A stretch of 64,000 nucleotides of DNA from Tubiluchus corallicola. Its lineage: Eukaryota; Animalia; Priapulida. Positions 9,089 to 59,194 of the stretch are shown in pieces. The notes below the pieces were generated by a model. It was not told the origin of the DNA. It made no database searches and worked only from the letters and a program-made list of their open reading frames with translations. Position numbers and translations under genes: made by a program. Each line of letters begins with the position of its first letter. Position 1 is the stretch's first letter. The stretch lies in the NCBI GenBank assembly GCA_030141605.1, contig JAQGDQ010000048.1, positions 817,466 to 881,465 on the forward strand. Reading direction: 5' to 3'.

Positions 9089-9182
9089 TACGAAGACATA
9101 TTTCATTCATTTCTGTATATATAAATAAATAAATAAATATATATATATATATATACAGAAATGAATGAAGTATGCCTTCGTA
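9089..9182. repeat. Inverted repeat (35-bp arms) around a TAAA/TA microsatellite
   Basis: TACGAAGACATATTTCATTCATTTCTGTATATATA pairs with TATATATACAGAAATGAATGAAGTATGCCTTCGTA with 2 differences. Confidence 0.85.
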
Positions 9183-10280
9183 TATCATATATATATATAT
9201 GATACTGGCAGTGGTCGAATCTTTGTTTAATCTTTTAGCTCATCTGGTAGGATGCTAGACCTACTTAATCCCCAAATTGGCATCATTTCCAGGCGAAACT
9301 TTTGTGCTGAAATCTCTGGGCAGATTAAACTCGTCGTGTTCGAACGCTCCGTAAAGAAATTAGACCAGTTCGATCGCTAATGACCTACCATAAATCATTC
9401 AACTTCCATTTGAATAGTTCTTCTTCCATTTAATTTATGTCTTCTACGATTCATCATTGATGAGAAACAGGGCGTATCTGATTTTCAAAGGGATGCACAG
9501 AAGTACAGAGACCAAAAATACTTAGTTTAAACGAAACTCATATTTTTTTCTTTCTTCAGCTGAAATTGCATTTAAAACGTTCAAATCTTTCTTCTCTTTT
9601 AATCGCATCCTTTTCTTTTCTCGCAACCTTGCGGTGCTTCTGTCTTCTGAGAATTTTGGGAAGAATTTCATTTCGTTCCATGAGATGATTAAGGAAGTCG
9701 TTTAGTCGTTTAAACAAGCTGGATAAGTGTTTTTGTGAGGATTCTAAAACGGCGCGTTGTGCAAATTTATGTTAAACTGTCTGGGCGCAATGGAAATTTA
9801 TGCTTCGGGTTGGAATGTGTTGATGTCATGACTGGTTTTTCACTAAACAGGGGGTGATTTACAGGTACATTGATGTCATCATTTTGTTTATCCCTGATAG
9901 TTGTGCAATGTACAATTGTACGTTCACAGATTCATATTACTACAATGAACAATTTTTGGAATTGCCATCCTGCAATGCGTCTCGACTGAATAAAACTGTC
10001 AGACTTTTTTCTTTCTGTGACGTGACTATATATGGCTGAATATGGCAGTTTCACATTTCCAAAATCTGGGCAACAGCGTCACGATGGCCATTTTCGCAAT
10101 GGTCAGATTTTGGTGTTCGTATTGTAATAGATCTCGGCTTGTAGTGAAACTACAAAGTCTGACGCCACGAACGTCACGTGATGATTTAACGTGACGTGGT
10201 TGCTAATTAGGCTGTTTCTTTCTTTGCCTGAAATTTCCACTAATTGAGATTTTGATTTTGTCTTTCCTACTATATCTTTC

Positions 10281-10385
10281 TTACCATATTTTACCTTAAC
10301 TTTCTTTACCTTGCCCTACCATACTTACTTACCTTTTCTTACCCTACCTTAACTACCTTGCACTATCTTACCTTGCCTTGCCTTT
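10281..10385. repeat. Degenerate (TACCT/TGCCT)n repeat
   Basis: Directly visible, about 140 bp upstream of the 77-nt exon. Confidence 0.7.
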
Positions 10386-10503
10386 TGCTCGATTTGGAGG
10401 CAAAAAGTGTTATATCTAAGTAAAGATGCCAAGTCTGTTGATGAGCAGCTATTGCTATTGCTAAATTCTTTTCCATGTTTCTCCCGAGTCGTTTAACTTA
10501 TAA

Positions 10504-10602
<99 letters not shown>

Positions 10603-11760
10603 TAAGTGAAGCTTTGCTACTTCAAATTATTTTAAATAGGTTCTCAAACGGCTTTAGTCTGTGAATTAATTAGCAATTTAGAAACCAGAATGAGAAATCT
10701 TAAATGACTATACACAAACAAAAAACTTAGAGCGATCATCCGACCTATTATACACTGGTATATGTATTATACACCAGTAACCTACGTTACTATATACAAC
10801 CTACATTGAGTCACATAAACTGTCTGTGTTAATCCGTGTCATGTTGACCAATGACCACTAATTCCACGCCGGCGACTCCTCATAGTGCCAGAACTGTCCT
10901 CCGTTGACCTTTGCCTACCACCAGCAGCGTAAGTGAAACTGAGTAAAGCCATTTAAAGCGTAAACACAAGGTATGTAAATGTTAATATAAGCGTGGCTAG
11001 AGTGCTTAGAGTTTACCTAAAGCGGGTCCCGTTTCAAGCAGACGTTGACTTTCTCATGAGTTAACCAAACACGGGCTTTTTCCCCGCTGCTCCAAAGTTT
11101 GTTACAACAAACGCGGTGTGAGTATTCATAGCAAACGTGTTCAAATATCAGTTAAAAGTTCAAAAATGAAAGAAAAAACTGATAGGCAAATGTTCAACAA
11201 CTTGCTAGATTCTGTATAACATTTTTATTCGTTACACTAAAATTACAAATATTTGATATTTTCTTTGACAATTGTGGAATGAGTTATGGATACCCAATAA
11301 ACGCATAATATTTTACTTACATGCATATGTAAATATGTATGCGTATGTGTGTTCAAGCTACAAACGATAACCAATATACTCAAAACTTTTATAGGATATA
11401 CCAGACAAATGACAAAGGCAATTTGAAAATTTCGTGTTTCATTGAATGATTCTAAAAGATTACATTATGTTTATATTTAATAGAAAACAAATTAATGCAA
11501 TTTGGAACTGCTGCACACTTAAAGGCCTGCTTTAGTACTTCTGAAAGTTTTTTGTGTTTAAATGCTATTTTTGAGTTTTCCTTTCTCGAGGCCAACTAAA
11601 AGCAATTAAAAATTTAAAACAAGAATAAATAATGAGAACATATTCAGTTTTGCGATATGCTTATTGACTTATTACTGCCTAAATGACTCAACTTTGTATT
11701 AAAACATGACGTCATATGTGAGGTGGTCCTTGCTTTGAGGTAAAAAATTATAATGAAGAG

Positions 11761-11984
11761 GAAAATTACGGTATACAACTATATGTCAGATATTCTCATT
11801 AAATATTCCTCTGTCAAATTAAGATTCCTTCTAATTGACAATTAGCAAAATTCATCAAGCCGTCTGTCATGTGACAGACATGAATTCTCATTACGCAGCA
11901 AATTTCATTAGAATTTGTGTAATTTTCCTGTCAAATTTATTTGTAAGCTTGTGCAATTTTGATATCAGTTAGCTTTGACTTACC
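11761..11984 (+). promoter_or_regulatory. Intronic conserved non-coding element (candidate enhancer), copy in paralogue A
   Basis: Core 11887-11933 matches the reverse complement of 53811-53856 at 38 of 47 positions. A second block at 11950-11984 matches 53742-53773. Dense TGACA and TAAT motifs. Confidence 0.7.
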
Positions 11985-14207
11985 TTAATTAACTTTTTTC
12001 GCCACATGTGCCTTATTAGGTTGGTGGTGAAAATCATTAGTTATTGCTGTATGCTTTAGTGATAAAGATGAACAGAAACTATAATTATAATACTTTTGTT
12101 ATGCCTTTTTGGGTAATATATGGCATCCAAATTGATCAGCTCATGCATTTTTGCACAAATTTAATAGTGGACTAAAATGCTTTAATTTTAAATATCATTT
12201 ATTTCTTAATTTCAGTACTTGAGTTTGTCTAAAACTTGTGCAAATTGATAATTACTGATCTTTATCTACATAAGCTTAAACAACAATTTAGTAAAGTATT
12301 AAAATTCTTTACATCCGTGAGGTTATTTAGTTAGTCTTGTGGTATTGCTGTGAAGTAAGCCACTACAGGTTCCTGTAATGTTTATGTACATTATCTGTTT
12401 TTGCTGGCGGCATAGTACGGCTATACTTCGCTAATCTTTTAAAAGGCGCAAGTTAGCAGTAATCCAAGTTTTTTTAGTTATACATTTACTGGTACGTGAC
12501 CAGTGATCATTTGTTCTTTATTCTAAAGGTTCAACAAATGGTTTTCGTATTATATAGCTACTTTGAACTGTATAGTTTGGCAATGGTAACCATTTAGCAA
12601 AGGCAAATAAGCGTGTGTTGTCAGAGATCTTGACTGAATGCAACTCGATACTAGTTTAATAGCATGCAGACCTAGCGTACACAAACTCTCCTAGCTCAAC
12701 TTATTTCTACGTATGTAAACTGCCTGTTGAAGTTTATTTTTTCACGTTCTGTGCAAATAAACTGAGCCAGCAGCAAGAATTAACGGTTGTTATGTCTTAC
12801 TAGCGCAGCGGTTAAAGCCATTTCTCCAGCGCGGTGGCTGGAGAGAGAAAGTTGTTTTTGAAATGCCCTTTGCAAATGGCTTGCGATTTTCAAAGGTTGT
12901 GTAAAGTTTGGGGTTGATTTAAAGACTTGTGTTTACAGTGAGAAGACAAATACCAAATATAGGCCGGATCGATAATTACAAGCAACTTTTTATGCAAAAG
13001 AAATTGATAATTTAATTCTACAGTATTAAACGTCGAGCGTAAATTTGTCACACTTTGCATGATACGTATGTTTTGGTGATATTTGTTTTAGTTCTGCCTT
13101 TTTTATCTGAAACCTAAAAACTTATTAAATATTAACGGCTCTTTGCCAGGTCTTATTTCTTGCTGTTTTAATTGTTCAATAAGCTGCGGAACAAATGCAA
13201 TACTTTATCGTTTCTCCTTGTAAGCGCTATTGCGTGGTTCTTAGATCGTGGATACCATGGTAGTGGGCGGTAATGGGGGCGTTAAATATATGGAATTCGA
13301 GGTGCATTGAAATATGTGCTTGTCCATGCAGTATATTAGTTTTAACCTTACCGCAGAAGATGCAGTGAAGTTTCTTTTGGACTTCGTAAGCAACAGTTTT
13401 CAATTTACTAATAGCACGTAACATTTACATATATACATATCTTACTGATCATGCCAAATTTATATATATGCTCAACAGTCACTCTCAACTAGTTTTACCC
13501 ACTATTTACGATAAAAACTGATTTTAAGCACTATTGTTCTGTTCCTTATCGGTTTTGAGCTCCGTTTCCAGAACGCAACATGAGTGTACCCAATGACGCA
13601 CCAAGCACAAGGGCTCTATCCCTCCTTTGGTGTGGGCCTTGATTCCTTCTTTGGCATTTGTCCAAGATTTTTGCGAATTCTTCTGTGCGCCTAGACCTTG
13701 GTGCCCACCCTAAACGAGGCAGCTTTATGCCTATTGCTGCTGACCTCGCAGCTAATGATGTTAAGCTAGCTATAAAACTATCATCGTATAGCAATTAACC
13801 TAGACCTGAGCAACCAAAGATCATTAGTGAACACTAATTAGCTTAAGATGCGCAGTAGTTTCTTATGTTACAAGACGTTAGTGAGGGTGGACCAAAACAT
13901 CAAGCGAAACGAATCTTTACGTCTTGGTTTTTCTTACGTGTCATTCTTGAACATCTACGCCTGAGGTCATTAACTCATTCATTGTTCCACGATTAATTTA
14001 TTTCTTGTTTTTTGTTTGCGTCTGTGTGAAAATCGAATCAATTATTAGTTATTTGAAATCAAAAATCAAACTTTACTTTCAGTGTTATTGATTTTGTTTA
14101 CTTTCAAGATATTTTGACCAGCACCACTGTTATCATGATTTTCATCACTTTCTTCATAATCTTTTTCACCAGGAATCATCGTTAGCTTCACAGTTGTCAT
14201 TATCATA

Positions 14208-17000: not shown

Positions 17001-17059
17001 GTTTATAAATGCACGGCGGCGGATAGTACAGCCCATGATTGACCAATCAAATCGAGCGG
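17001..17059 (+). CDS. Meis: Meis paralogue A, 59-nt exon (W/FINARRRIVQPMIDQSNRA), homeodomain helix 3
   Basis: Acceptor tttcag ends at 17000, donor GTAAGT at 17060. Completes the split Trp codon (TG|G). WFINARRRIVQPM is diagnostic of Meis. Confidence 0.97.
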
Positions 17060-18545: not shown

Positions 18546-21500
18546 AAGTCCTACTATAGTAATATTTATATATGCTTCACCTAGTATCATGGATTTAGTT
18601 TTTTAAAAAATTACTTGAAAGTGATATCATTTACATTTCTTATATATTCACATTCCTGAAAGGGAAGGAAAGTGCACCCAATCAAACTCTTCTTGTCAAT
18701 ATACATTAATCAGTAATTGATTACAGTTTTGAAATACCCTAAAGTGCCGCTTTAAGTCCTCAGATAGAAAGACATAGTAGATTAGTAGATGATAATTGAT
18801 TTTTATTCTGCAATCGATCTTTTGAAATGCTATAGTAATATTTTTCGTACATTATTACTAAGTTTAATGACATTTCTCCTTATTATAAGTAGGTAAGTAT
18901 ATATATAAGAATTTATAACAAGCACGTGAATTAATTAATCCAGTGAATTTAAATTAGTTATGCAAAAATATAGTAATACGTTATTTTTTTAAATAGCTTA
19001 TAATATTAATAATAGCAAGTAATACATATTTGTTAATTTGGTTATCCGAGTTGTAGTGTGTACTGATGTGTTATGCTGTATTAATTTTATGATGAGCTGG
19101 GGCAGCACATTGCTTATGATATGGACCATCCCTGTCTTCTTCACCGCTAACATGTTTCTTCTCCTTTTGTAATTGTTGTTTTGTTGCATTATGTGCCTAA
19201 GAGAAGTAAAATAAATTATCTATGTTTTGTCTATGCAGTATGTCTATTTTGTTGAACAACGTTTTATGCCTACTGACAATTTATTTATTTTTATCCTGGC
19301 TAATTTGATGAACATTTTGCATTAGGTATTTGTTGTTTTAACTTTTATATTATCTGTGCGTATCCAATGTAATTTTAGTATGGCACTATATATCTTCTTT
19401 TTTCGGGAATATGTTCTAATTTTTGTGCAATTCTGTCAAAATATGAAGTTAGTAACTTTGCATCAGAGCCTACTGAGTGGGCCAAACACAATTAGAAAAT
19501 GGATGTTTACTTGTATTGCAGTGTGGTGAAATCAGAATTACAACATTTCTGAAAAACAAAAAATGCGGCAATGGATAACATAACATGTAATTTTTTCATC
19601 CTTTTTGCCGGTTGTCGATTATTGCTCCTGTGTGACTCACAAATCATACTTTACGTGTTGAACTCAGCTGGTTGTACCATTGCCTGCACGGCTCTCGTAA
19701 ACTCACCAGTCTTCACTCAGTTTATGCTCTCTATAATTTATGATTTCATGCTTTTACTTTAATGGTTGCTGTAAATTACCTGTGAGCCACCGAATCCATT
19801 TCGATCGTGTACTTTTGGCTAGCAAAAAGTGGTTTTTGTTTAGCCGCTTCTGAAACTCATTCGATGTTGTGCTCGCCGCGACCCCTGGGAGCATTTTTCG
19901 GCCATTTTGAGCGTGGGATATTGCGGCGTAATGCGTCTTTATGCGCAATTGCTGGAGAGTATAAGAGCGAAAAATAAACGCTGTTGTAAATCAATAAGGA
20001 AGTTGGTGCTTGATTTTTTTACATGTATCCAATGCTTTTGTTGTCTCTATGACAGTTTATATTGTTTAATCTTGATAGAACCTGCTAATTAATTGCTAGT
20101 AATTCTACCAATTCCTCCTGCAAGCGTGAGCAGCCATAATTATGTATAGAATAGGCCCTGTGAGGATTCTATGGCCTTTTTCGACGAGTTTGATTCTGTT
20201 ACGTTTTATTTCGTTTTTATTTTTCGATTTTTGTCTACACCTTTAGTCTGGAGCCACGAACCTATTTAGCGTCGTTTTTTCATGTTTGTAGTCTACCATT
20301 AGCAGCATACATACTTGACAAGAGTTCGTTAAGACATCACAACGGCAAATTAGCTGGTTCTTGGGCCTGTAGGGCTAGATACCTAGGAATGTAACGAAGA
20401 CGGTCTGACAGAGACAAACGACTATGTCTTATTTTCGTTTAAAATGTGAGCAACTGTCACCAAAGGCCGAGCTTTTTCTATGAACTAAAGAGTTTTAATG
20501 TGTCACCTAATGCAGTGGCGCTTTGATGGTTAAATAAGTTATGATGGTTCAAGTGTTATAAGTAAAAACAATTATATTAAAATATTTTTCAAGTAAAGGT
20601 ATCTAGGTAGGTCTCGTATTGGTATTTGGCAAGTAATGGTTGACAGGCTCTGGCCTACAGCTTTATGAGCAGTACAAGTGAAGGAAATCAGCTCCTTCGG
20701 AACATAAAATTATAAATTAATCGGCTTCCTTTCTGTTTCAAATCCTAATCTTCACTTTTTTTATTTATCATCTGTTTGACATGTCCGGCGCACTATAACC
20801 TCTTCCCTATAGTTTCTTCCTTCTCTTCCCTTCTCCAATTAACGAGTTTTCTTCGTCTTTTGGGTGTACTGTTTTCAAATTATCTAACTTCAAAAGTTTA
20901 AACGTACCTATCACGGATCCAGACTTTTTAACCTAATTTCGCTGTTCTGATTAGGTATCATCTTCAGGTGCCAGGGTGCAGTTTGTAATAGGTCATCAAA
21001 GTGAACTCTGCGTTCTGCATACTTTGCATTCTGGTCCCAGTTTGTCATTCATTGTCTGTTTTAGCACCCTTGTTCTTATCATGTGTGTTGCTGTGTGCAG
21101 CAGTTTTTTGATTGTGTGCATTAAATATATAACACTTATGTGTTTGATGGTCGTTTTGCTCTAAATAAAATTTACTTATTTTGCCACACAAATTTTGACA
21201 ACGCACACTCATCATCATCACTTTCCCCATTTCAATGTTGCTTGTTGCAAGCGAAAGCCGGCATCACCATTTTGGAAATGCAGACATTGTGGAAGAAAGA
21301 AGTTCATGCTTGCATTTTTGATGCCAAAGCCGGACATTTCTCGCGCGATTATACTACATGTAGTATTCGTTCCCTGCAGTTTTTGATTGTCTTTTATACT
21401 GGGTTTCCTGGATCGCTTGTTGCCCGTTTCTTCTACGTAGAGGTACGGCGGGCTTCTAAAAGAACCCTAAGATGTTGGGGTAATGGTTTTGCAGAGAAAA

Positions 21501-23269
21501 CTTCTGTGCTTCAATAATAGTTCCATTTCTCAGAATTTATTTTCTCTTCGCTGACTAATGCAATAAGTAGTTGATAGGAGGAGTTAGAGTCAATTAAGTG
21601 TTTAGCAGTCTAAGTTTAGTGCCAGCTTCAACAGAAAGCAATTACAATTCGCCGCTTTTATGACCATTGGCGGAAAATGAAAACGCCGTTTGCCCGATTG
21701 CTGCATTGAAACTTCGTTCTGTGGCGACCGCCAGTACGTTTAAACGGCGTTTAGCTCTATCATGGCGCACTGAAACCGACGTAAACTGGCATTGTATGCC
21801 AGCCAACGATGTTGTAACTAGTTTAATAGTCAATTCTTCAACACTTTGTCTCTGCCAGCCACTTCCTTATTCGGCTGTGTTTATGATGGCTAAACCTCTG
21901 ATGGGAAAAGCTTGTTTTAGTGCAGATTAAATGTTGTTTTATAGCCGACTGCAGATCATTCTTGGCCGGCCGTAAAACGATGATATTCAGCATGCGAGGT
22001 GTTTGTGATCAGTCGCTTTGGTGCTTTCAGAAAATCATTTCAGGACCGTAAAACATCGCAGCAACTGGTCGTTAAAGTTGGACATTCTCTCGTAAAAGTT
22101 TCAGGTTGGAATGAAACAGTCCCATTGTGCAGCTTGTTGATGCTGCGGGCTAAGATCGTAAATATTTCATTGTCCGGGGGAGGTAGTGAGCTCTCCGTCC
22201 AAGCAGATGTCACCCCCGACAGTTTTACGACTCGGCTTATTCGTGATTGAAAGATCATAAAAGTAAAGTTCACTCATCCGAGATGTGCGTCGTCTCCGCG
22301 GGGAGGCGTTCGTAATGCCCAACTTCAAATGGTCATAAATTTAAACGAAATTTATTCCCTGCCCACTGAATTGACTTGTATTTTCAGTAATTGTACTGTG
22401 TTGATTAAAACACTCACCTTGCCTTACCTGCTTTGAAGTGTAATTGACTGTCCGTTTTATGCTACGTTTAATGTGAAATGTTTTAGTAATTTTAATTTAT
22501 TCGAGTGTTATCAGCATAGTGAGTTGAGAACATTCCCACGCGTAAATGAACGAATTGAAAAGTTTAATTGAAATGTTTGTATCGTGATGATACATTGTAA
22601 TAGCAGTTTTTATAAAAATTGTAATAAATAATTTACAATGTGCATTAATTGGGCATTGTCATGCATATATGTTGCAGAAGATTGAATTGTAGTTTTTTTA
22701 CATAACGATTTGTAATTACTTTTTATCAAAAATTGCTTATTTTTATGTTGTCTTATCACGAACAAGAATGAAGTTGAGTAGTGCTAACTAAATACACAAG
22801 TATTTTTAAATAAAAAAAACAAGGAAAAAATCGTTAATGGTAGCTAAATGGTAATTTTGACTTAATAAAGCAATTACTACAACAAAACAGAAGCACACTG
22901 CACAGAAAACTATAACTGAAAACGTTGCGAAATAAAAACAAAGAGCGCCACAAACGTATATACTGTTGATGTGGTCGAGTTCTGTTTCAAAATAAGAAGT
23001 CGTTGGTCTACTTGGCTTTAAAGGAAAACAGGGCCTACTTTCAAACTACGGTGCACAATGATCTAATGTATAAAATATTGAAAGGAAAAATGATGTTTCT
23101 TTAAAAATGGCTTACCTGAAGGAATTATTTCTGCGGAAACTTAATTTTGTTTCCGCACGGTTAGTTTTTTGCTGTTGCACGCGTTTCGCCATTCGTAGTT
23201 AGATGGACAACAACACCTGTATCTGGGAAATGTGTTGCACAAAAATAGGCACTATACCTGGTTGTAAGA

Positions 23270-41500: not shown

Positions 41501-43298
41501 GTATGTGTAAAAGAACCACGTCAAGATGAAATGGCATTCGCGTAAGTCAGAAATTACTTTTCGTGTTATTAGTTTCTAACAGCTGCATTCCAACAGTTAG
41601 CTAGCAGACAATTAGTATAATGTATTAGTATCTGAAGTAAATTTGCTTTTGAAAACATCCTCAGATAAACTGAAATAAAATGCTTTCAAATGGAATGAAA
41701 TTGGACAGGCATATCAAATTAAAATAAATTATATAATTGCAAGCACGGCAGTATAAATGTAGATTCCTCAAGATAATCTGCTGGTGGAGTAGACGTATTT
41801 AACAATTTTAAATGAGTGTTAACAATCCTTTTTCTCAGGATTCAAATTTAATAATGATTTTTCTGGCAAGATCCTTGTTTTTTTGTTTCTTAGACATACA
41901 GTGATATTAGCACACCCACGATGCTGAAAAATATCTTCGTTGTCAAAACATAAATCAGGCCGCATTCGACGACTAGGACAAACTGGTTTAATAAAAAACC
42001 AATAAAATCGTCCGAACAACATTAGTGAACTTCAGCTATCAATCGAAAACTGGACCAAGCTATGCAGGTAATGAAGTTGAAGAAGATGATTAAAGGAGTT
42101 AAGACGTCGATAATCGCAGGTAACAGCAGTCGTAAAACCGTTGGAGGTCGCATCTGCATGCTCACAGAGGGCCGGACTACTCAAGCACCCATTGTGTTTT
42201 TAAAGTTTGCCGATTGCCCTAAAATAGTGAGTCTGAAAAAATACGTTGGACTTGGTCCATAAAAAGTGAGTTAGTTATGAGCAACAGAGGCGCGCTGATT
42301 ATTAATTGTTTGAAGGTTTGATTATATTTGGGGCTTAATTTTAACCCAGTAAAGTACTTTAGTAAACTTGTTCAACAGTGTGGTTGCGTCAAATATTTCA
42401 AAGCTGTGTTTCAATTTTTCAATCATATACACTTTCTGATAAGTATTATGCATGGTCTTGCATTACCGTCGGCAACGCCATTAGTAGGCATAGCATGGCC
42501 CATCTTTCAGTTTCAGTCAAAGGTTTTTAGCAAAAGAGCCTATGAGTTTAATCGCCATGCGTTAATGCGGACTTTTATGAACCTTGAAGAACCCAAAATG
42601 ATTTTCTGAAAGCGCTTCGGCGACCAATCATGAGGCGGGTATTACGAACACTTTATGGCGGGTCCATTATTGGGGATGACACTGACTATAAAACCACAGT
42701 CAATCTACACTAAACTGAGCTTTTCCCATCAAGAGACAATGATTTCTGTTTTCCACGCCGTAAAACAAAATGCACACAATTAACATTCGAGGCGCATCTA
42801 CAGATGATCAACGGCTATACGAGCCAATGGCCAGCAGCAAATCAGCATCACTGTAATAAAGGCTATAATTATATAATTTTGGTTTAAAATAAAAGTATGA
42901 TTAAATCTGCGTACATTCCATGAATAACCGCATTTGCTCTAAGATGGCAAGTTCTTTTTTGTGTCTCTATTTTATTTTCGTAGCACTTTGCAGCACTGTA
43001 GCACATGGTTAAAGACAAATCTAATAATTATAAATTATAACTCTTTTCTAACAAGTTATAATAATAATTCTTTCAATTTTGTTAACAATTTTAGGGTTGA
43101 AGCAACTAGACATACTGAATGATACTTGGTATTGTTGATGAGCTTCCAACTTACTAGATCAACAATCTGGTAGCAATGCAGCTTACCTAGTGTCACTTAC
43201 AACAAACTTCCCTGGCAATTTAAAACTGGAAATAGATGTAATTATTGTGTAGGTCCACCACGCATATCAGACGGCACAGGCGTGCGAAAAATTATATT

Positions 43299-43347
43299 CA
43301 TAAACGATTTTATGGTCCAATAAAATTGTCATTACAGCAGCCATAAA
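43299..43347. promoter_or_regulatory. Cluster of Hox/Cdx-type (TTTATG, TTTATTG) and Meis-type (TGACA) motifs
   Basis: CATAAA 43299, TTTATGG 43309, CAATAAAA 43318, TGTCA 43327 and CCATAAA 43341 within 49 bp. Confidence 0.35.
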
Positions 43348-44777
43348 CCACTGAGAGACAGAAAGAAAGAGTAGACGTGTGATCATTGTGAGATCAAGTA
43401 TCGTTAAATCCCTTGTCAGTTTGAGACAATTAAATATCAAGGCGTGGCTAATTGATATAGGCTGTATATGTGATTTATTTAAAAGATTTTCGTATTAACA
43501 ACACCAAGAATTGAAGCCTATAACCTTATATTGTACACATACTAATTGCTGTACTGACATTTTTGCCACCGGAGTTTTCCTGTGAACGAAATTTGTACAT
43601 CGTTTTCAAGTTTTAGTGTTAAATAGAGTTCAATTACAACTTTTTCTATTTAAAATTTGTTTTTGTCGGAAAACATACTTTCGGGCAATATGTTTCAGTT
43701 ATTACTTAAACAATACTTGAATTTGTATAATGTTCATCATCATCATCATCGTCGCTCTTTTTTCCTACCCTTTCATACACACCACAGTCACCTTTGCCTT
43801 AATCGCCTTGACGTGTTATGGTCATTATCGCTATCAGTTTTTTTTTAAATCAAAATATTATAGGTGTCATTCTCTACTGTTTCGACTCACAGTTACCATA
43901 AGATTTTATCATATAAGATCACGTTTGGTCACTACATATTTGTTTCTCGAGTTTTCTGCATTAAACTTTCTGTTTGTTAGGTAATTCCGTTAATTCATTT
44001 AATGTATATAAGTTTTTTTGTTTTATATAAAGTTGTTATCACCCAAAAAATGGGTTAACACAGACACTGGGAAGTTTTTAACGCGAAGCCCTTGCATTTT
44101 AAACGAATTTCACGCTTGGTGTGAAACTAACAATTCTCTAGGGTTGAATTCGCATTTTTCGCCGCAGTGTAAGCCGAGCAAGCACCCACAACATTATATA
44201 TCTAAATGGAGATGGAATAATTTACTATCGCTATTAAACTAAAAGCAGAAAATCATAAATTATTGAAAAATATAAACATTCCGTCGAGCGAACTCAGTGC
44301 CTTGCGACAAGTTCGCTGCAATTATATTGATTCTTATCCATTTTGGTGTTTATAAAAAGCGATATTATTTTTGAAACTGGATTTTGGGTCTGATGGCCTA
44401 AATTTGTTGTAAGGAAAAAATCGAATCAAAATACATAATTTAACAATTAACAAGTTTGATTCGTGATTCCTAACTAAGAAAGTAACTGCTGGTAAAGTCT
44501 TTAAAAAAACCATAAAAACTCTACCAATTAATAGATTTTAAAGATGCGAAAACTAAGCATATAGTCAATGCTTTTTGTTGTTAACGTGAAATCCGCAATA
44601 CTGGTTTTTATTTCTTCGTTGCTAGAGTGTGCAGCTTGTATATACTGTGCAAGATCAACTTACCTAGAATTTTGCGCGGTTTTTTACGGAACTATTTATT
44701 CGCCGCTTAATAAGATTGCTGCTTAATATTATTACTACTAAAATTTTAGCAAAAGATGGCAGCATGAAACAACTCAC

Positions 44778-44836
44778 CTGCTCGATTTGATTGGTCAATC
44801 ATTGGCTGGACTATTCTCCGCCGTGCGTTTATAAAC
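44778..44836 (-). CDS. Meis: Meis paralogue B, 59-nt exon (W/FINARRRIVQPMIDQSNRA)
   Basis: Minus-strand acceptor ctacatag and donor GTGAGT at 44777. Peptide identical to 17001-17059. Confidence 0.97.
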
Positions 44837-46810: not shown

Positions 46811-49800
46811 TTGACATTTGCTCTTTGAATTAATCACTCTAGCAGCACGTTTGCAAAACGATTTTTGTGAAAAAACTTAGTTGTCAGTTGTAACTGGTTA
46901 GGTGCAGCAGTTACGACTTTTGACCTTGACTTTGCATTACCTGTTGAAGATCTCTGTTTCCTTTGTAATAATAAGTTACTCAAGTTGCAATTGAGTGGGT
47001 TAGGTACAGCGTTTACGGCGGAGAAAATATGCGAAACAGACGTATCCAGGAGATTCCAAGTTTTTAAAATCTTTATTCAAAAATTCTTAATAAAACTGCC
47101 ATTATAAAACTATATATTTGAAAAAGCAACCACTTTTTTACGCATTAAATAATATATAGTCATACAACATCGAACAAGACTTTAAATAAATAGTTTAATT
47201 TTGTAAAAATTATACTGAAGTTTATCCTTATAAGTGTTTAATTTATACTGGCGTATGTGTAAAGTTAAGCGACACTCTTAGCTTTTTCCTTTCCCCAAGC
47301 TATATCCCTCGCTTCTAGCTCATAAGCTAACTCTTTAAATGCATTAAAGCGCACTCCCGCATTACCCATACTTAACCAGCACAGTAACAATGGCAGCCTT
47401 TGATATGCGCGTATTATTTCACAATTTACTCACATACGAGCAAAAACTCCCGAGCGCTAGCCTGTCGTTTGTTAATACAACAGATATGAAGATAGACGAG
47501 CCTAACCATTCCCGCGAGTCTACCTAGATAGTCAGTCTAAATAGTAGCAAAATGCTATATTCGACAACAAATGAAAATAAATGACCCAGGTCTGCTCAGC
47601 CAGCTGATTCACAATTTGACCTAAGATTTCCTCGGAGAGTTGCATCATCATATATTGCAACTGATGCAGCAACCTTATACTTTTCAAAGGCGGATCAGCG
47701 CGCGGGTGGCGCTGCTATCGCTCGAGAAAAATCTATTCACTGATTCGGAAAATATGACATCATTAAGCTCCCAAGTTTTTTTAGTTAAGAATTTGAAGTC
47801 GCTATCTAAACCTTGGTGAAAAAGGTTCCAAGGTTGACATTTCGTTGCCTAGATCCTACTTTAAGCGTCTCACAGATGCTCGTTGGAAAAAAATCAGCTG
47901 CACAAAGTCGACCGATTACGCAAGTTACTCAGTGGATGTTTGTCCCGCAAAAAAGCATAATAGGATAAAAATGGATCCCGCCGGACGAGCACAGCACTCT
48001 GGGTAATGTATTTAGGAAATAACATCAATGCCGTATAATTAATGTATTGGACATGATGTCCCCAAACATAGATTTGCCGAGCAATTATGGCGAAGCGTGT
48101 GTGGTTTTAACAAAACAAGCAGTCTGTTTCTATACTTCTTACTAAACTAGGGTCTCAAAAGACAAATACTAGTATTATGACGGAGATCACAAATCAAGGC
48201 CATAAGCATTGACTCAGCCATGCATTCGAGTTGCTGTGTATTTAACGGACATGAAAAGGTGTCTGGGCGAGGAGTGCATTTTCACAAGAACAAAAACATC
48301 ATCATAACATTTTGCTGAAAACGCAAGAAATCTTGCGTAGAAGACACGTGACTTCCGACTTAAAAAACACAAGAGCGAACAGTCGCAAAAGTAAACAGCG
48401 CTTGCGATAAGATAGACATTAATTGATGTGAAAAGGATCTTAATGTCGCTACAAGTAGACAAATGAACAGGAGGAGATAAATGAATTTCTCATCTAACAT
48501 CATCCAAAGTCAACCAGGATTGCGAGAATGAGCGGTGCGTCGCGTGTCAGATTCTGTTACGTTTATCACCGCAAGACAAACTGAGTAGACAGCTTTTCCG
48601 CATGATACAACCCCCCCCCCCCGAAAATTAGGCTGAAAATTTGGATAAGACGTTTACATGAATGTTATTTTAAATAAATGACACGTGGAGACCATGGTGG
48701 CCATCTGTAACGTCCTTTGTGATTTTAATTTTTTACTATACGATATATTAGTAGGAAATCTAGTGACAAAAATGGCACATTATTATTATTATTATTATAA
48801 TCAGAATTCTGATATTATAATATATACCTTCAGATTATAATGCAATATGTACAGATGCAGCTCTCAATTTGTAGGAAAAGATAGCTAGCGATTACATACA
48901 AATGGCAGTTATAGACATACATTAATTAAATTTACAATGTCAATTAAAAGGTAATATATACAGTATAAGACGATCTACAATAAAGTTAGCCTATTTATAC
49001 GACGAGTTATGGAACAGTCATGTGCTTATAAAACATACACACAACATGCCACATTCAAAATAACATTATTTAAATAGGTATAATAATTATTAATTCATAC
49101 AAATAGCTAATGTACTCATTTTTATGAAAATTAATGTGTTATATTTTACATTAGCCTAATTGGAAATTCATTTTTTACTAAATTGATAAATGGTTTAAAA
49201 ATGGCATACGTAAAAGCCTGCACAGACAATTCTTAACACGGCTACTTTCTCCTGTTTAATTTGGAAAACGCGTTTTTAACGCGTTTTTGCTCTGGATCTT
49301 CCATATAAGTACAATTGTTCATTACAAATTAATTTCATTGCACTTCTCTACACTGAATTCAAATTTTGGCGATCTCTAAGGTTTCATTTTGAGAATGTAT
49401 TCTAGTTATCACGAAACTATTCTGACTAAATGCCGCCAGGAATCCAAATCTCCAATGCCTTATACAGATAACCACCTGACCCCATGGAGCAAGACTGGTT
49501 CAGTCCAACGTTAACTAGCTCTGTAGCTGATTGAGTTTATTTTCTCTGGAAAGCGGAAAAATAAACGCCAAGAGGCAGTTTATATATGCTGGATATGTGT
49601 CCATGTTTATGAGCTATTAAACTGGGCTCGAGTTGCTGAGAAATGTGAGTTTAGATGCGCTTGGTTGCTATCAGCTGCGTTTCTTCTCTTACTATGAAAT
49701 GCGCTTGGCTGGATTCAGCTGTGTCCACCCACACTCCTGCTATGAAGGCAACCTACCATCATCAAAGGCGAAATTTGCTACTGCCTTTTATGTGATTTTT

Positions 49801-52800
49801 TTGCCATGAAAAAAGCTAAGCTAATCTTTTGGCAGCTTCATGCACATAACCCAGAATCATTTCTCATTGTATTTAATTCTGTGCTTATTAGTCGGTTTGC
49901 GTAAAATTCGTTGATTTATGCAATATTTTTTTTTAATTCGCTTGAGTTCGGACCTCTGCTAGCGGGTGTACTGTGCAACACCCTTACAGAAGAATCATCA
50001 ATGTGTATGTATGGGGAGAGACAAAAGAATCTAGCGAATTATCAAGTATAAATAATCCTTTGAGAGGAATAATGAATAAGCAAGCACACTTTTAGCCACG
50101 TTTGTGGATATACTTCTCTCAATAATATTTGTTATCAACTTCGTACAGTTCAATTTAGCAATATAATCCACCAAATAGTATGCAGGTTATCATACTTTTT
50201 TATTATTAATATCATTTATTTTCGAACACACATGTACAGTTAAGTTACATAAGTGGTTCAATTAAAAAAATTAAATTATATTTTAGCTCAGATGTTTAAT
50301 AAACACTTGCTACAACAATCCGTATTACTGTCATCACCACTTCAGCTGATTTTCTATGCTTACAGCAATTGAATATTATTACGATGAATTGTTAGCTAAA
50401 ATATGCATCCATTTACTCTGGCAACTTTTCTGGCAAAAAGCCAAAATTTGCAAGACTTTCGCCAAATTTATAGAAGCAAGACACTCTTTTAAACCTTAGC
50501 TCATTTTCAACTATTGGTAAAATGGATATTTCAAAAACTCTAATTATTGATAATGTTTACTAATATGTAAACGCAGTCGTAACGCAGTTATTAATGAGTG
50601 GTGATGAGTATAAATTGACTAAACAGCGTCTATCTTTTATATTACGTGTCTTACTGATGTTTGCGAAAGCAAAGCAATACGGTAGCACGGAAACAGAAAA
50701 ACTCGGCAAATAGTAACTTCACAAGTTCAAATTTTAAAGACATTGCTGCGCACGATATGACTGTTTGTGCAATATCACTACTGATAAGTTTTGCTGATTT
50801 CATGATTGGGCTGTGTATGTCACCGTATTCGGGAAACGGGCGCCGCTGCCCACCTTGGCTGCCACCGGGTAAAATTGAAAAGTAACGAAATCAAAATTCC
50901 ATGAGCCTAATTCTAAAATGCATATTATTCTTAAAGAACAACATTTGCATCTATTTAAGATATTGCAAACCATAGGGAACTTTGAGTTATGGTCTGAAAT
51001 ATCCCTTAAAGTCCAACCATCTTCTCGCACGTGCAAGCATACAAACCATCCGTAAAATCACCATAGTACAAACACATTCTGAAGACGTCCAGACCATTTC
51101 GCTAATTTATTCATCCTGGCCATTTCCTGAACTAATTCAGCCAACTGAAAGCCATCCCTAATCATTTACCAAAGGCTCTGCTTATTTACTGCCTGCCCAT
51201 GACAGATAAATCTTGCTAAAGACATGGAGGGAACACCTTAAATGGGCAAGAAAATGTTCCTAGGTTGTTAGTGTCGGGCATAAATCACGTAAATCCGCGA
51301 AAATGTCCAGTGATGGGTTTTCAAGACTTGATTACTAGCACTGGTATTGAATACTAATCGATATTGAAACTGTGCGCAATGTATCACTAGAGCTAGACAA
51401 TGAAGGAAGAAAATGTCTTCTTCGTGATGCGATTGACATAATAATCTGTTGGAAAGACACGCAAGTTGGATTTCTGAGGCATTCACAAAAAATAGGAATA
51501 TGTGTAGTATCAAAGTTTGAGCCTATTCGTTTTTTTTTTTGAAAACGTTCAAAGGAGATTAAGACAGAGTAAATACCAAAACATACATAAAAACACCGTC
51601 AGAATAAAAACACTACACGAAATTTGAAAATGTCTTTAAAGTTTCCACGTGAAATCACAACACAATATTTAATGGTGTTGACGCTGAACACTTTTGATAA
51701 TTTTATATATTTTACCTACAAGCAAAAAAAAGAAAGTTTCAACATACAGTTTAAAATTTAATTGAAATATTTTAAATCTAATTTTATATCTCCATAGGTA
51801 TGTGGAGATATCCACATATATATCCATGTTTTTTAATCTGATTTTAATTTTAAATTAATTACTTAATTTCGCAATCAGTAATTGTAAATACTGATGTGCA
51901 TCACTGGTTGTTGATAATACGCTGATATAATCTGTAGCTTCTCTTATTTTACTTTAACTTTTGTACAGCAATCCCAGGCTTTTTATTAATTGTTATGATG
52001 CTACTTGAATCGATGAATGTCATACAAAATTTTCTCTGAGCTTGACTGCTTTTATTTGATTAGAAGAGTGAATAGCATATTAGTTTTTTAATCTGTCTTG
52101 TACATTATATACGCATGTAACTATATGTACATTATTCATCTAATTGCATGTTACACTGACAATCTTCATTTGCAGATCACTAGTACTTTCATGTAACTTG
52201 CGATCACTTTGGTGTAGTGACATCTCATATCCACCCAACCCCCTCTCCTCCCATTCTGTTACTCTGTGTGCTAATGACAAGCCGTGGAATGCTACATGAT
52301 GTATACGTTATGTGACAACTACAAATTATTCAGTTCTGGCAGTTATTAGAAAACTGGAAGACATTCCGCAATTTTTACTCTCGGCAAATAGCTCATTATA
52401 CAAACCTGGAGAGAGAGAGAGAATTTACATTTCTGGAAGCAGCTACCAGATGTGAGAGACCTGTCAGGATAAATGGGAAAGTAGACAATTGATGTTAACT
52501 ATTTTGCTGAGCCTACACATTGAAAATTATTGCAAGCAAGTTTGCTTGTCTGTAATTGAAAATTTAATTTTTGAACGGCTGTAATGTTCGCGAAGGTATA
52601 TGAAGCGTTTAATCTGCGGTGGGTTTCATAATCGTTGGTGGCCATCTCGGCCTACATGGCTACCACCCGGGCAAGCAGATGCCTGACTCTGGTAAGATCA
52701 TAAATCAGAGGGAAAACATTTTAGGGGCGATTTAACGACGTTTTAGCTCATCTGTTGAAAGATTTTGACATTTAATGACCGAAACAGTCATTATGGAGCA

Positions 52801-53270: not shown

Positions 53271-53741
53271 TAATTACTTTTTAATCATTTTAGCCAGTTT
53301 CCCTTCTGTTCTTTGAGCCATTAAGTTTGTGGAACAAATGTCTTGTGTCTCAGTCATGAATTATTAAAAGTGCTTGTTGATGTAAACAATTTGATAAATA
53401 ACTTTTTAATAAAAATGGCGAGTTCTCTCATTAGCATAAATAAATGATAAAACTGGAAAGCTTTGTTAAATGGTTTTGGAAGGTTACTTATAGCCCACAT
53501 GTTTAACAAAAAAGATGCCGCGCTTCCTATACTAATGGTTAGAGACTTTCGAAAGCTTTTCAGTAAAGTTTAATTATTTTAAAATAGGCAGTATGAGTAA
53601 TCTTCGCGAGAAGAGTAATGTAGCAAGATTAAAGCCGATAGCAGAAAGAGATATTAATCACGGGAGAGCTGAAACAATTCCAAACAAATCAGCCTTCAAA
53701 ATTAATGAGGAAAAAGCAACAGCCAGCTGCGAAACCGACTT

Positions 53742-54014
53742 GTTAAGTTAAATTAATGACACGAAATTGCACATCAAAAAGGCGGGACCTGACATATATT
53801 TTACAGAGAGTGACAGCAAAATTAGACGAACCTAATGAAATATGGTACATAATGAGGAGCAGAATCGAGTTGCATGTCATTCCCTGTCACAAAAATATAA
53901 CTATGACGACCAACGCTAATTTGGCGGTGAAACAAAAGACGAACCCGTTATCCTGCTAAATCAACTGTTCAGATATTTTTGTCTTTTTTGTCAATCTAAG
54001 CTCGCGTAATTTTC
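53742..54014 (-). promoter_or_regulatory. Intronic conserved non-coding element (candidate enhancer), copy in paralogue B
   Basis: Collinear similarity to 11761-11984, in the homologous intron and in the same orientation relative to the gene. Confidence 0.7.
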
Positions 54015-57000
54015 TCTAATTTTTAATTATTCAAAATTCTTTGATAATTCCACATCAAATTATGCAAGTCTTAGATGTAACTTCGAATTGTTATATAGTT
54101 GCCTTACCTCATTGCCAAGACTTTGCAATGATTGGACGATGAATTAAAAATCCTCTCATCAATACGGAATTTAAACATAAATACAAAGCCAACATTTTCA
54201 ATAAGTATATAAGTCTCCCTCAAATATCTGCTGTAGCTGCTCCTTCACTACTACCACATTGATTATTATCAGTATATAAGTTACGTTATACTTTTATTTA
54301 AGAATATAGTATTTATCGCAAAACACACCACCATCCACCTCTCCCCATTTTTCGCGCTAATTTTTTCCTAAACTTTATTATCACTACTAACCTTGTTTTC
54401 TTCCCTTTTTTTCACATGTTCAGAAAACTTTTAAAAGCTCTCAGCTTCTTCAGCCTTCTGCTGTACAAAAGGTAGGAGCTATGTAAATTGTTCTGATATG
54501 ATATTAATTATTTTGTTAATTTTCGATGTAATTTTATTTTTGCACACGTATATGTTCTCTACTATTGTACTGATATGAAAATAAATTACATACCAATTAT
54601 ATTTATTTACACATAAAACATACATTACTTCTGTTGTCATACATCGCAAATTCTCAACAGCAAGACAATTGTTTGCGCTGAGCTAATTTTCTGCACATTA
54701 TTTATTTGCTCTGCTTTATTATTCAATTAATAATAAAAAACCTCGACTTACAATGCGACCAAGAAATGCCCTATACAGAAGAGTCAGTGGCGTTTTTTGA
54801 AAAAAAATAGACACTTATCTGCTTAAGAGGGTTACTGCGGCAGTACAAACGAGGTGAGAGTGAGTAAAATTAGCCATAATACTGAGTCTTACTAAATATT
54901 CTGCAAAAACACAACTACGAACTATATGTTAAAATGCCTCCTTTAAAGTCATAGCAATATTAACACAAGATCCATATTCCGTCAGTTGGTTCTCTGTCTG
55001 AGGTCTCTGTTTCTTAATAAAACCATTATACTTTCGGAATAATCATCTTCCCACCAGGAGCACCTTTACCTTTGTCTTAATCTATTTAGGCCAGTATTTT
55101 GTCAATTAACAAAATCACGTTTTCTTTCGTCCTCGTATTGCAATAACGTTCTTTCCAGTTTCTACGCCATGTTTTTGGCTCGGCTAAGTAGAATCAGAAG
55201 GATTAAATATTTACATGCGGCCTGACAGCCGGAAGATGAATGATTTTCATTTTGGTTCTTAAACAGATTCGGCTATTAGTAAGTTAATTGAACAGACGTA
55301 TATTTGGACATGTTGTTACACTCGAATGACATACACACATACAACTGCCATGCTGCCAAAACACATGTAATCGAAAGGCAAAGCTTTTAACATATTGCAG
55401 ACAACCTGAGATAGGGAGTTGCTTTGATTTTTACTCTCTGGTCGCCATTTTTTGTGTTGTCGCAGTATTTTACTTTTTACAATTGACTAAAAGAAAAATC
55501 AGTAGAAACAAATGAACTTACGTAATACGAACAATCACGAAAAGATAGAACGTAATTAATAAAAGCTAGACATTAAACACAGAATGACCCTTCACTTATT
55601 TATTTATTTCGATCAAAATTTTGGTGCGGCGAAAATTTTGAGCAAAATTTTATAATGGTATTCGTATTCCTCTTAAATATCCCAATATTGTGACGTTTAG
55701 GAAAGGGGTGAAAATTCATTATTATGTTGCTTGAAAACCATAAACGTAATACCCAACTTATAGAATATGGTCTTATGCCCTTCACTTGTTTTTTGTAATG
55801 CCCCACTCTCGTCTGTCTTTCGCTAATTTTGCTGGCTACCAACTTCCGTTTCCTCACTTCCTTCAGTTAGGACACGAAACACTATATTTATCGCCTGCAC
55901 GATTGCGAATGAAAACATCTAGCTTATATGTGTATATATAATTAAAAAATGCGCGTTATATAGTCAGACGCAAAATTTTGTTTTGTTTTCAAGTATCTAG
56001 TAATACCAAATATCAGTAGGCGTGTAGTCATTCAATACTGTCTATAGATGTATAGTCCTATATGCTATATTATTGATAAAAGCACAAAGAAGAAACGTCT
56101 GACCAACTTACCGGGGAATTAATCTCATTAATCTCTCGTTAAATACAAGAAATTAGCCAGAAACAAACAAACTCCCAGACGGCTGAGCCTAATGCCAACA
56201 ATGAAATCGACAAGAGACCACTCTAGGGTAACAAAGTTACACAGTTTTATCCGAAATGGTTTGCTGACCAACTCCAGGGTTAATTGCCATTAGCTCTTTA
56301 TCCATCTGGGAAACTAAATTGGCTTCTTTCGCTGCCTGGCTCACAATTGGTTTCAAAGAAACAAGTATATTATCTATTTGGGCTGAGTTCTCAACTGCTC
56401 AGTCGTAAGAAACACAGGAATTTTAAAAAAATTTTGATATGTCTATCGGTCAGGACACTATGCTGAAATGATATGTCTAAATGAAACAAAAATTACAACA
56501 CAGGAGACGCATACGCACTCGGACTTGAACTGTCGCCAAATAGACGACCTAGCACAGACTAACGTATTAAGCAGGTATCACCATCATCAGATTCTGGTTT
56601 ACGTTAGTACAAAAAAATCAATTTTTTGTTCATTTTTCAACATATAAAAACTGTTCATTTTGTGATTCATCTTAGAGTAAATGGCGCAGGACTGACAGTG
56701 CTGCCCCTATAAACAAAGCGAAACAGTTGTTAATGCATCTGGCATGCTCAAGTTTATAAACAAATCTAAACAGCTTCTGCGGAAACTGTCATTATTTAGA
56801 ATTAGAGGGAAAACTATCTGCGAATAGAGTTACTGACTGAGGCTGAATCTAAACGATCCACTTCTACACGGCGGGCTATTTTAAAAGAATCCGTCTCACT
56901 TACAAACCTATTGCTGGGATTATAGTAATGGCTCTCCGCCTTTCCCAAAGTTTTGGCTTCGCATACGGCTTTTTCGTCTTGAAAGCAACAATTATTTGCT

Positions 57001-59117: not shown

Positions 59118-59194
59118 CAGTTATTAACTTGTAGTATTGTTAACCCTGTATCCTGTGCTAATTGCTTTTTCTGTTCTTCTGAGGGATACGGATG
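59118..59194 (-). CDS. Meis: Meis paralogue B, 77-nt homeobox exon ([26 protein letters not shown])
   Basis: Minus-strand acceptor ctttgtag and donor GTAAGT at 59117. Same length and phases as 10525-10601. Its upstream exons were not found in the window and presumably lie beyond 64000. Confidence 0.97.

What the first reader, a model, noticed from the sequence alone, without database searches (positions are those of the whole stretch)
11761..11984. Paralogous conserved non-coding element in the same intron of both Meis copies
Seen: A 11887-11933 CTCATTACGCAGCAAATTTCATTAGAATTTGTGTAATTTTCCTGTCA aligns to the reverse complement of 53811-53856, CTCATTATGTACCATATTTCATTAGG-TTCGTCTAATTTTGCTGTCA, at 38 of 47 positions. 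Collinear flanking blocks are GAAAATTACG (11761 and 54014-54005), GTGACAG, and TGTGCAATTT..T.TCA.TTA..TTT.ACTTA.C (11950-11984 and 53773-53742). Both copies lie between the 77-nt and 59-nt exons, in the same orientation relative to transcription. The conserved columns are the ATTA/TAAT and CTGTCA words. Inference: an enhancer that predates the duplication and has been kept by selection while nearby synonymous sites saturated. Vertebrate Meis introns are known to be rich in conserved enhancers.
Basis: partly seen in the sequence, partly recalled or inferred. Interest (0 to 1): 0.78.

Follow-up and report, generated by a model that had tools for sequence, protein, structure and literature searches.

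The report
Shared Meis-site cluster in duplicate introns
Two neighbouring copies of the developmental gene Meis, in what is likely a priapulid worm, keep the same short intron segment packed with the DNA word that Meis-type proteins bind, so it is likely an old self-regulating enhancer, a kind already known around vertebrate Meis genes.

Summary
The match is real: 38 of 47 positions agree between 11887-11933 and reverse-complemented 53811-53856, in the same intron of two tail-to-tail Meis paralogs; 1 of 450 shuffles scored as high. It is one of seven collinear blocks in introns 9 and 10, and 0 of 300 shuffles reach either chain score. Both copies are single-copy in deep DNA contigs. Synonymous sites are only partly saturated, but 8 of 8 exon-anchored non-coding stretches show no leftover similarity, so uniform neutral decay is unlikely; patchy slow decay is not excluded. 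The best clue to function: the two densest 250-base TGACA (Meis/TALE core) windows of the whole 64 kb are these two copies, six sites each, in both orientations, half at non-matching positions, beside conserved TAATGA words. No conserved RNA fold, exon or Rfam family was found at the element. Best reading: a TALE-plus-homeodomain enhancer, likely auto- or cross-regulatory (about 0.6). No orthologous intron was available and no binding or reporter data exist. Duplicated conserved elements at Meis genes are known in vertebrates, so this is a new member of a known kind.

The parts
11887..11933 (+). Core of the element, copy A (Meis intron 9): two TCATTA words, TAATT, CTGTCA
53811..53856 (-). Core of the element, copy B
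11743..11886 (+). Upstream flank A: collinear words AAAAATTA, GAAAATTACG, ATTGACAA, TGTGACAG; five TGACA sites
53857..54024 (-). Upstream flank B: the same four words in the same order with different spacing; three TGACA sites
11934..12002 (+). Downstream flank A: TGTGCAATTT and weaker similarity
   Evidence: (z 2.5)
53729..53810 (-). Downstream flank B: TGTGCAATTT, two further TGACA sites
10525..10601 (+). Meis copy A, 77-nt homeodomain exon (exon 9)
17001..17059 (+). Meis copy A, 59-nt homeodomain exon (exon 10)
59118..59194 (-). Meis copy B, 77-nt homeodomain exon (exon 9)
44778..44836 (-). Meis copy B, 59-nt homeodomain exon (exon 10)
12549..12785 (+). Second conserved element of intron 9, copy A (blocks 12549-12572, 12640-12663, 12712-12771); RTAAAC-rich, can form a stem
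49509..50167 (-). Second conserved element of intron 9, copy B (blocks 50167-50144, 49636-49613, 49586-49526)
19730..19763 (+). Conserved block in intron 10, copy A (partner 44266-44233), 30 of 34
21899..22232 (+). Conserved blocks in intron 10, copy A: 21899-21944, 22023-22040, 22200-22232
42128..44266 (-). Conserved blocks in intron 10, copy B: 44266-44233, 42731-42686, 42613-42596, 42160-42128

Best explanation
Both Meis copies keep a 47-base intron core within about 250 bases that hold six TGACA words each, and this is likely a DNA-level enhancer inherited from the single ancestral gene, through which Meis-type (TALE) proteins together with another homeodomain protein would regulate Meis itself. 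Shown: homology, position, single copy, motif density. Inferred: purifying selection, from a non-alignable background and from TGACA sites present at non-matching positions in the two copies (site turnover). Inferred from known binding preferences: TGACAG is read by Meis (or its TALE relatives Pknox and TGIF) and TAATGA/TAATT by an Antp-, LIM- or POU-type homeodomain, at the fixed spacing kept in the core. Untested: any binding or enhancer activity, the sign of regulation, and which promoter is contacted; since the genes lie tail to tail 42 kb apart at these sites, each copy could act on either gene.
For: Alignment above chance (1 of 150 and 0 of 300 shuffles). Collinear same-orientation chains in introns 9 and 10 (scores 59 and 77; shuffle maxima 28 and 22; wrong-orientation and swapped-intron controls 0-9). 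Exon-anchored non-coding ends show no residual similarity in 8 of 8 tests (z -0.9 to 1.5), where neutral simulations at 0.7 substitutions per site give mean z 3.1-7.3; uniform neutral decay at 1.0 or more gave no hit of score 45 in 160 simulations. The two densest 250-base TGACA windows of the 64 kb are the two copies, 6 sites each against about 0.7 expected; TGACA ranks first of 512 5-mers in both, also after four aligned blocks are masked (4 and 4); TAATGA ranks first of 2078 6-mers with the core included. Sites lie in both orientations (A 2+/4-, B 3+/3-), as fits a DNA-binding factor. Depth of the deep DNA run is single-contig at both copies (170 and 174) while true repeats in the same introns reach 1,400-11,000. 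A transcript-type protein 99% identical to copy A joins exon 9 directly to exon 10. Literature: MEIS ChIP peaks carry TGACAG and a flanking TAATT motif and occur in MEIS1/2 introns (PMC11584712, passages); meis2 CNEs need Pbx-Hox and Meis motifs (PMC3261376, passages).
Against: No orthologous intron from another species could be compared: the diverged low-cover run X5 covers neither core, the metagenome pattern scan gave 0 matches and 80 Meis-related loci, mostly transcripts, gave no match. Synonymous sites are not fully saturated (14 of 32 four-fold sites differ). With regional rate variation (gamma shape 5, 50-base blocks) neutral simulations give at least one hit of 45 in 92%, 52% and 40% of 40 runs at 1.0, 1.25 and 1.5 substitutions per site. 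One of the four 'unaligned' TGACA sites per copy proved to lie in a collinear word, so only 3 and 3 are at non-matching places; in symmetric 200-base flanks without the core TGACA ranks second (p 0.03 per copy). No shared canonical Pbx-Hox TGATNNAT site (1 in A, 0 in B). The copy-number test did not even pick up the paralogous core, so old diverged copies would be missed. TGACA is also read by Pknox and TGIF (recalled), so autoregulation is not the only reading.
Confidence: 0.62

Rival explanations
1. The block is a leftover of the duplication with no current function: a slowly mutating patch, or one refreshed by gene conversion between the inverted copies.
For: Four-fold sites differ at only 14 of 32. 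Neutral simulations with strong regional rate variation at 1.0-1.25 substitutions per site give 3-6 hits of 32 or more and 130-340 aligned bases, close to the observed 4 hits and 155 bases. The 3' part of the last exon is nearly identical between copies (6 of 38 degenerate codons differ, against 36 of 76 elsewhere), which may be conversion.
Against: No residual similarity at 8 of 8 exon-anchored non-coding ends. Both introns hold two hits of 45 or more, which the rate-variation model gave in 7 of 40 runs at 1.25 and 3 of 40 at 1.5 for intron 9 alone. Decay does not explain why both copies are the two densest TGACA windows with half the sites unaligned. Conversion should homogenise the homeodomain exons first, yet their pS is 0.70.
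Confidence: 0.15
2. The element works in the pre-mRNA: either the shared TGTGACAG acts as an acceptor of a stop-bearing exon, or the core pairs with the intron-10 block (21899-21944; 42731-42686) and loops out the 59-nt exon, giving a Meis protein with a truncated homeodomain.
For: Splicing exon 9 to the shared TGTGACAG gives a stop at once in A and after two codons in B. The core and the intron-10 block are complementary in the same register in both copies: -27.0 kcal/mol in A (0.08% of 4,869 windows are as low), -17.5 in B. Homeodomain-less Meis/hth isoforms and a splicing-related intronic element of fly hth are known (PMC3140891, sections 11 and 14). The neighbouring element can form a conserved stem.
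Against: The core has no local fold (z -0.60 and -0.32; consensus -1.06 kcal/mol, 306 of 400 shuffles as low). The conserved duplex ranks 7th of 110 block pairs, p 0.07-0.23; in B it is only in the top 10%, its best helix has a G-G mismatch, and the cross-copy duplex (-29.8) beats the cognate one. The candidate acceptor has 10-11 pyrimidines of 19, near the intron median, against 12-16 at nine true acceptors; candidate donors are not aligned. TGACA sites occur in both orientations. P0001 shows direct exon 9-10-11 splicing.
Confidence: 0.13
3. Both copies are relics of a dispersed transposon or repeat.
For: These introns hold several high-copy repeats, and the depth test cannot see copies as diverged as the paralog itself.
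Against: Single-contig depth at both copies; the pattern occurs exactly twice in the window; same intron, same orientation, and a place in a seven-block collinear chain; no tandem repeat or Rfam family there.
Confidence: 0.04
4. Chance similarity of AT-rich DNA.
For: 1 of 450 shuffles reached score 45; E-value 0.002 in the whole-window self comparison.
Against: Collinear chain (0 of 300 shuffles), collinear flanking words, controls in the wrong orientation or wrong intron are empty.
Confidence: 0.02

Closest known systems
Vertebrate duplicated conserved non-coding elements (dCNEs), including 8 at the MEIS2 locus (McEwen et al. 2009, PMC2781166; 12 passages read)
   Same: Short non-coding blocks kept beside paralogous developmental genes, inferred to predate the duplication.
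   Different: Those arose by whole-genome duplication, are conserved across many species and several were tested as enhancers; here the duplication is local and tail to tail in an invertebrate, and only two sequences are compared.
meis2 CNEs with Pbx-Hox and Meis motifs (Parker et al. 2011, PMC3261376; 12 passages read)
   Same: Meis-locus elements with conserved TGACAG/A motifs next to homeodomain sites, read as auto- and cross-regulation.
   Different: The defining TGATNNAT motif is not shared here (1 site in A, 0 in B); TGACAG pairs with TAATT/TAATGA instead; those elements lie downstream of the gene.
MEIS1/2 ChIP-seq sites in MEIS introns of human neural stem cells (PMC11584712; 9 passages read)
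   Same: TGACAG at the centre with a flanking TAATT homeodomain motif; sites within the MEIS genes' own introns.
   Different: Binding is shown there and only predicted here; in those cells MEIS1 and MEIS2 did not change each other's mRNA, so binding need not mean regulation.
Long, CNE-rich Meis/hth introns 6-9 across animals (Irimia et al. 2011, PMC3140891; outline, methods part and sections 10, 11, 14 read)
   Same: The element lies in intron 9, one of the four long introns proposed to carry regulatory elements.
   Different: That survey had no priapulid, found one Meis gene in most invertebrates and reports no tandem pair in the sections read.
Pan-animal Meis promoter segment (Frith and Ni 2023, PMC10735318; passages and supplement Figure S12 excerpts read)
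   Same: A conserved Meis regulatory segment annotated with a MEIS site.
   Different: It is a promoter segment with other sequence; its 13-base MEIS word has no match in the window beyond chance (1 hit with 2 mismatches, 1.7 expected). The promoters lie outside this window.

Membership tests
Duplicated (paralogous) conserved non-coding element | Similarity above chance between non-coding DNA of two paralogous loci, collinear and in the same orientation | tested here: met
Duplicated (paralogous) conserved non-coding element | Non-coding: no protein-coding or known RNA-gene explanation | tested here: met
   No shared open exon, no six-frame protein match, no Rfam hit at gathering score (one E 0.46 sub-threshold hit outside the core), absent from the P0001 coding path
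Duplicated (paralogous) conserved non-coding element | Not a dispersed repeat | tested here: met
   Single-contig depth in run X1 at 80% likeness; old diverged copies would be missed
Duplicated (paralogous) conserved non-coding element | Conservation exceeds neutral expectation | tested here: inconclusive
   Uniform decay rejected; regional rate variation not rejected by alignment alone
Duplicated (paralogous) conserved non-coding element | Each copy conserved in orthologous loci of other species | not testable with these tools
   No animal genome collection; searches gave no orthologous cover of the core
Pbx-Hox/Meis enhancer of vertebrate meis2 type | Conserved Meis motif TGACAG/A | tested here: met
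   Two TGACAG and one TGACAA shared at collinear places
Pbx-Hox/Meis enhancer of vertebrate meis2 type | Conserved Pbx-Hox motif TGATNNAT beside it | tested here: not met
   1 site in copy A, none in copy B
Pbx-Hox/Meis enhancer of vertebrate meis2 type | Reporter activity that depends on the motifs | not testable with these tools
   needs a reporter assay
Structured intronic RNA splicing element (fly hth type) | Conserved RNA secondary structure | tested here: not met
   local; long range, p 0.07-0.23
Structured intronic RNA splicing element (fly hth type) | Alternative splicing or intron retention at the element | tested here: inconclusive
   The one RNA-type run covers neither the element nor the homeodomain exons
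Pan-animal Meis promoter segment (Frith and Ni 2023) | Sequence match and promoter position | tested here: not met
   intronic position; motif search at chance level; whole-segment alignment not run

The most novel reading that the evidence does not exclude
The core is not only a DNA element: in the pre-mRNA of both copies it pairs over 10-11 kb with the conserved intron-10 block and loops out the exon for the DNA-recognition helix, while the neighbouring element folds into a conserved stem, so that a chain of paralog-conserved intron blocks forms an RNA switch between full and homeodomain-truncated Meis proteins.
Probability: 0.06. Interest if true: 0.78.

Novelty: new member of a known kind. 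Interest (0 to 1): 0.36.

Why it matters
Priapulids are slowly evolving relatives of arthropods and nematodes with almost no mapped regulatory DNA (own knowledge). A tandem Meis pair old enough to have lost neutral intron similarity footprints its own regulatory elements without a second genome, and gives seven candidate blocks. The TGACA cluster makes one prediction that can be tested: Meis binds and regulates its own intron 9, as proposed for vertebrate MEIS genes. If true, intronic Meis self-regulation would extend to a basal ecdysozoan, and the two copies could buffer each other's dose. The kind of element itself is well known.

Tried and rejected
No whole genome is held for this window, so no genome-wide profile search was possible. 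No RNA holder was listed for 10400-14100; the RNA-type run X6 laid 3 and 1 contigs, none on the element or the homeodomain exons: uninformative. The diverged run X5 has no cover at 11602-12202 or 53576-53992. Pattern scan of JGI metagenomes: 0 matches. 80 Meis-related metagenome loci (best 80 of 337; mostly transcripts, genomic ones with short introns): best match to any block E 0.04, none convincing. Rfam: one weak tRNA-like hit at 38377-38435 in the window, nothing at the element. Local RNA fold of the core: not significant and different in the two copies. Long-range pairing of the core with 12 other blocks or splice regions: only the intron-10 block stood out, in copy A alone, and failed the two-copy test. 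Cassette or poison exon: no candidate with shared acceptor, donor and frame. Duplicated homeodomain exon (as in Capitella): none found by tblastn. Match to the pan-animal Meis promoter word: chance level. Literature: searches for priapulid with Meis/homeobox (9 papers) and priapul with homothorax (6 papers) listed no paper on a priapulid Meis duplication, judged from listings; one search found 0 papers; Glazov et al. 2005 is not held and is cited only through PMC3140891. Earlier findings of the scan: nothing on this locus.

Full report
Setting. The window holds the 3' halves of two Meis genes, tail to tail. Copy A (+) has exons at 3657-3808, 10525-10601, 17001-17059, 27169-27252 and 27955-28199; copy B (-) at 59194-59118, 44836-44778, 37508-37419 and 37124-36889. 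The spliced parts from the 77-nt exon on are open in both and 132 of 150 aligned residues are identical. The closest named protein is a Priapulus caudatus Meis (127 of 150 and 126 of 151 identical). In a tree of 22 proteins the two copies join Priapulus with support 99/97 and are sisters at 94/83, which is below the tool's threshold and may be inflated by the near-identical last-exon tail. So the animal is likely a priapulid other than P. caudatus, and the duplication likely lineage-specific; both are inferences. An unnamed Logan protein, P0001, is 99% identical to copy A and joins these exons directly. By the numbering of Irimia et al. (PMC3140891, sections 10 and 11 read) the intron in question is intron 9; I infer this from the 59-nt exon being followed by an alternative in-frame extension. 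No whole genome is held.

The observation. With intron 9 of copy A shuffled locally by dinucleotides, 1 of 150 and 0 of 300 shuffles reached 45. Of 40 region/strand pairs compared, only the two homologous-intron, same-orientation pairs scored 45 or more; the other 38 reached at most 40. The flanks are weak singly (p 0.01-0.10), but upstream four exact words of 8-10 bases stand in the same order with different spacing (p 0.003-0.016), and the downstream 100 bases align better than all of about 2,000 random stretches by global score though only at p 0.04-0.08 by word chain.

It is one of a chain. Seven blocks run collinearly through introns 9 and 10: 11887/53856, 12549/50167, 12640-12771/49636-49526 (two hits), 19730/44266, 21899/42731, 22023/42613 and 22200/42160. 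Chain scores are 59 and 77 against shuffle maxima of 28 and 22 in 300 runs; wrong-orientation and swapped-intron controls score 0-9. Homology by descent from the pre-duplication gene is therefore firm. Intron 8 (only partly in the window for B), intron 11 and the 3' region gave no such blocks.

Not a dispersed repeat. Contigs of the deep DNA run X1, laid at 80% likeness, give single-contig depth over both copies (170.3 at 11602-12202; 174.2 at 53576-53992), while real repeats in the same introns give 1,400 to 11,000. X1 may be the sample behind the window, so it is not independent support for the sequence. The test did not pick up the paralogous core itself, so old diverged copies could be missed. 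The shared pattern occurs exactly twice in the window.

Selection or leftover? That is partly true: pS is 0.70 in the homeodomain exons and 0.95 in exon 11, but 0.37 in the last exon; four-fold sites differ at 14 of 32 before, and 4 of 20 within, the last-exon tail. Simulated uniform neutral decay gives at least one hit of 45 in 8 of 40 runs at 0.75 substitutions per site and in 0 of 160 at 1.0-2.0; with gamma-distributed regional rates it does so in 37, 21 and 16 of 40 runs at 1.0, 1.25 and 1.5. To fix the non-coding distance I aligned stretches of up to 200 bases anchored at exon ends: 8 of 8 show no residual similarity (z -0.9 to 1.5), where simulations give mean z 3.1-7.3 at 0.7 and 1.3-3.5 at 1.0. 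Large indels near exons could hide some similarity. So uniform decay is unlikely, and patchy decay is not excluded by alignment alone.

The motif evidence. TGACA, the core of the Meis consensus TGACAG (PMC11584712 and PMC3261376, passages), occurs six times in each copy against about 0.7 expected. The two densest 250-base TGACA windows in the 64 kb are these two copies. Against this: one of those four sites per copy lies in a further collinear word, ATTGACAA, leaving 3 and 3 at non-matching places (Poisson p about 0.01 and 0.02 by my arithmetic), and in symmetric 200-base flanks TGACA ranks second. The sites lie in both orientations. In the core, 26 of 26 columns in CTCATTA, TTTCATTA, TAATT and CTGTCA are identical against 12 of 21 outside, with the motifs chosen after the fact. 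The combination TGACAG-N3-6-ATTA occurs twice in the window, once per core. A cluster kept in both copies with partial turnover is what enhancers under stabilising selection show and what passive decay does not predict. There is no shared Pbx-Hox TGATNNAT site.

RNA-level rivals. The core has no significant or shared local fold and no Rfam match. A stop-bearing exon from the shared TGTGACAG is possible on paper, but the acceptor is weak (10-11 pyrimidines of 19, against 12-16 at nine true acceptors) and the candidate donors are not aligned. The core is complementary, with many G-U pairs, to the intron-10 block 21899-21944 / 42731-42686, which would loop out the 59-nt exon: -27.0 kcal/mol in A (0.08% of 4,869 windows as low), -17.5 in B (about the top 10%). 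The two-copy duplex ranks 7th of 110 pairs with p 0.07-0.23, so I keep it only as the novel case. No RNA data bear on the element.

Other species. The diverged low-cover run X5 misses both cores. A metagenome pattern scan gave 0 matches, and the best 80 of 337 Meis-related loci were mostly transcripts with no match to any block. Orthologous conservation is untested, not absent.

Mechanism. Most likely (0.62) the ancestral Meis intron 9 carried an enhancer with a fixed homeodomain-plus-TALE core and looser TALE sites around it; the local duplication copied it, and both copies kept the core while flanking sites turned over. Meis itself is the likeliest reader, giving auto- and cross-regulation; Pknox or TGIF (binding preference recalled) are alternatives. 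Binding, activity and sign are untested.

Comparison and verdict. Paralogous CNEs are established in vertebrates, 8 of them at MEIS2 (PMC2781166, passages); Meis/hth introns 6-9 are long and CNE-rich across animals (PMC3140891); clusters of tandem developmental genes sharing regulatory elements are reviewed in PMC3342872 (passages); a MEIS site marks a pan-animal Meis promoter segment that is a different sequence (PMC10735318). Two searches listed no paper on a priapulid Meis pair (listings only). Supplements of the other papers were not read. The element meets the testable features of a duplicated CNE, fails the Pbx-Hox signature, and is a new member of a known kind. Interest 0.36.

Noticed in passing
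window 12640-12771 (+) and 49636-49526 (-): The second intron-9 element can fold into the same 15-pair stem (loops of 50 and 28 bases) plus an 8-pair hairpin in both copies; all 23 pairs hold, 1 with a change on both sides and 2 on one side. Consensus energy is reached by 7 of 400 shuffles on the sense strand and 9 of 400 on the antisense strand, so it may equally be inverted RTAAAC (forkhead-like, recalled) sites: 3 and 4 such words against 0.5 expected. Block 12549-12572 can pair with the same arm as an alternative, though it lies 500 bases away in B.
   Followed up: partly
window 28050-28199 (+) and 37040-36889 (-): The 3' part of the last coding exon is nearly identical between the paralogs (6 of 38 degenerate codons differ, against 36 of 76 elsewhere), while the 3' UTRs do not align: gene conversion between the inverted copies or a nucleotide-level constraint.
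   Followed up: partly
window 17060-17128 (+): Copy A keeps a 69-nt in-frame extension of the 59-nt exon ending at a second donor, likely the alternative exon 10' of Irimia et al.; copy B has a stop in the same region, so it has likely lost it.
   Followed up: partly
window 19695-22333 (+); 44266-42128 (-): Intron-10 conserved blocks carry TTTAYGA words (posterior Hox/Cdx-type, recalled); five lie within 22090-22333 in copy A against 0.18 expected per 250 bases, one in the matching window of B.
   Followed up: no
P0001, MEIS domain (upstream of the window): The copy-A protein departs at several positions that are constant in the other Meis proteins fetched (for example AVQALQFHLVE against AIQVLRFHLLE), which may mean a changed Pbx/Exd contact in this paralog.
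   Followed up: no
window 23021-24222, 44819-45652, 49823-50656, 52742-53158: High-copy repeats inside the introns (depth 1,400-11,000 against about 175).
   Followed up: no
window 38119-38506 and 60613-60832: Two related pieces of a dispersed repeat with internal inverted parts; a weak Rfam tRNA hit lies at 38377-38435, as a SINE-like element would give.
   Followed up: no
window 11862-11879 (+): Copy A alone has a perfect palindrome GTCTGTCA-TG-TGACAGAC holding two back-to-back TGACAG sites just upstream of the core.
   Followed up: no
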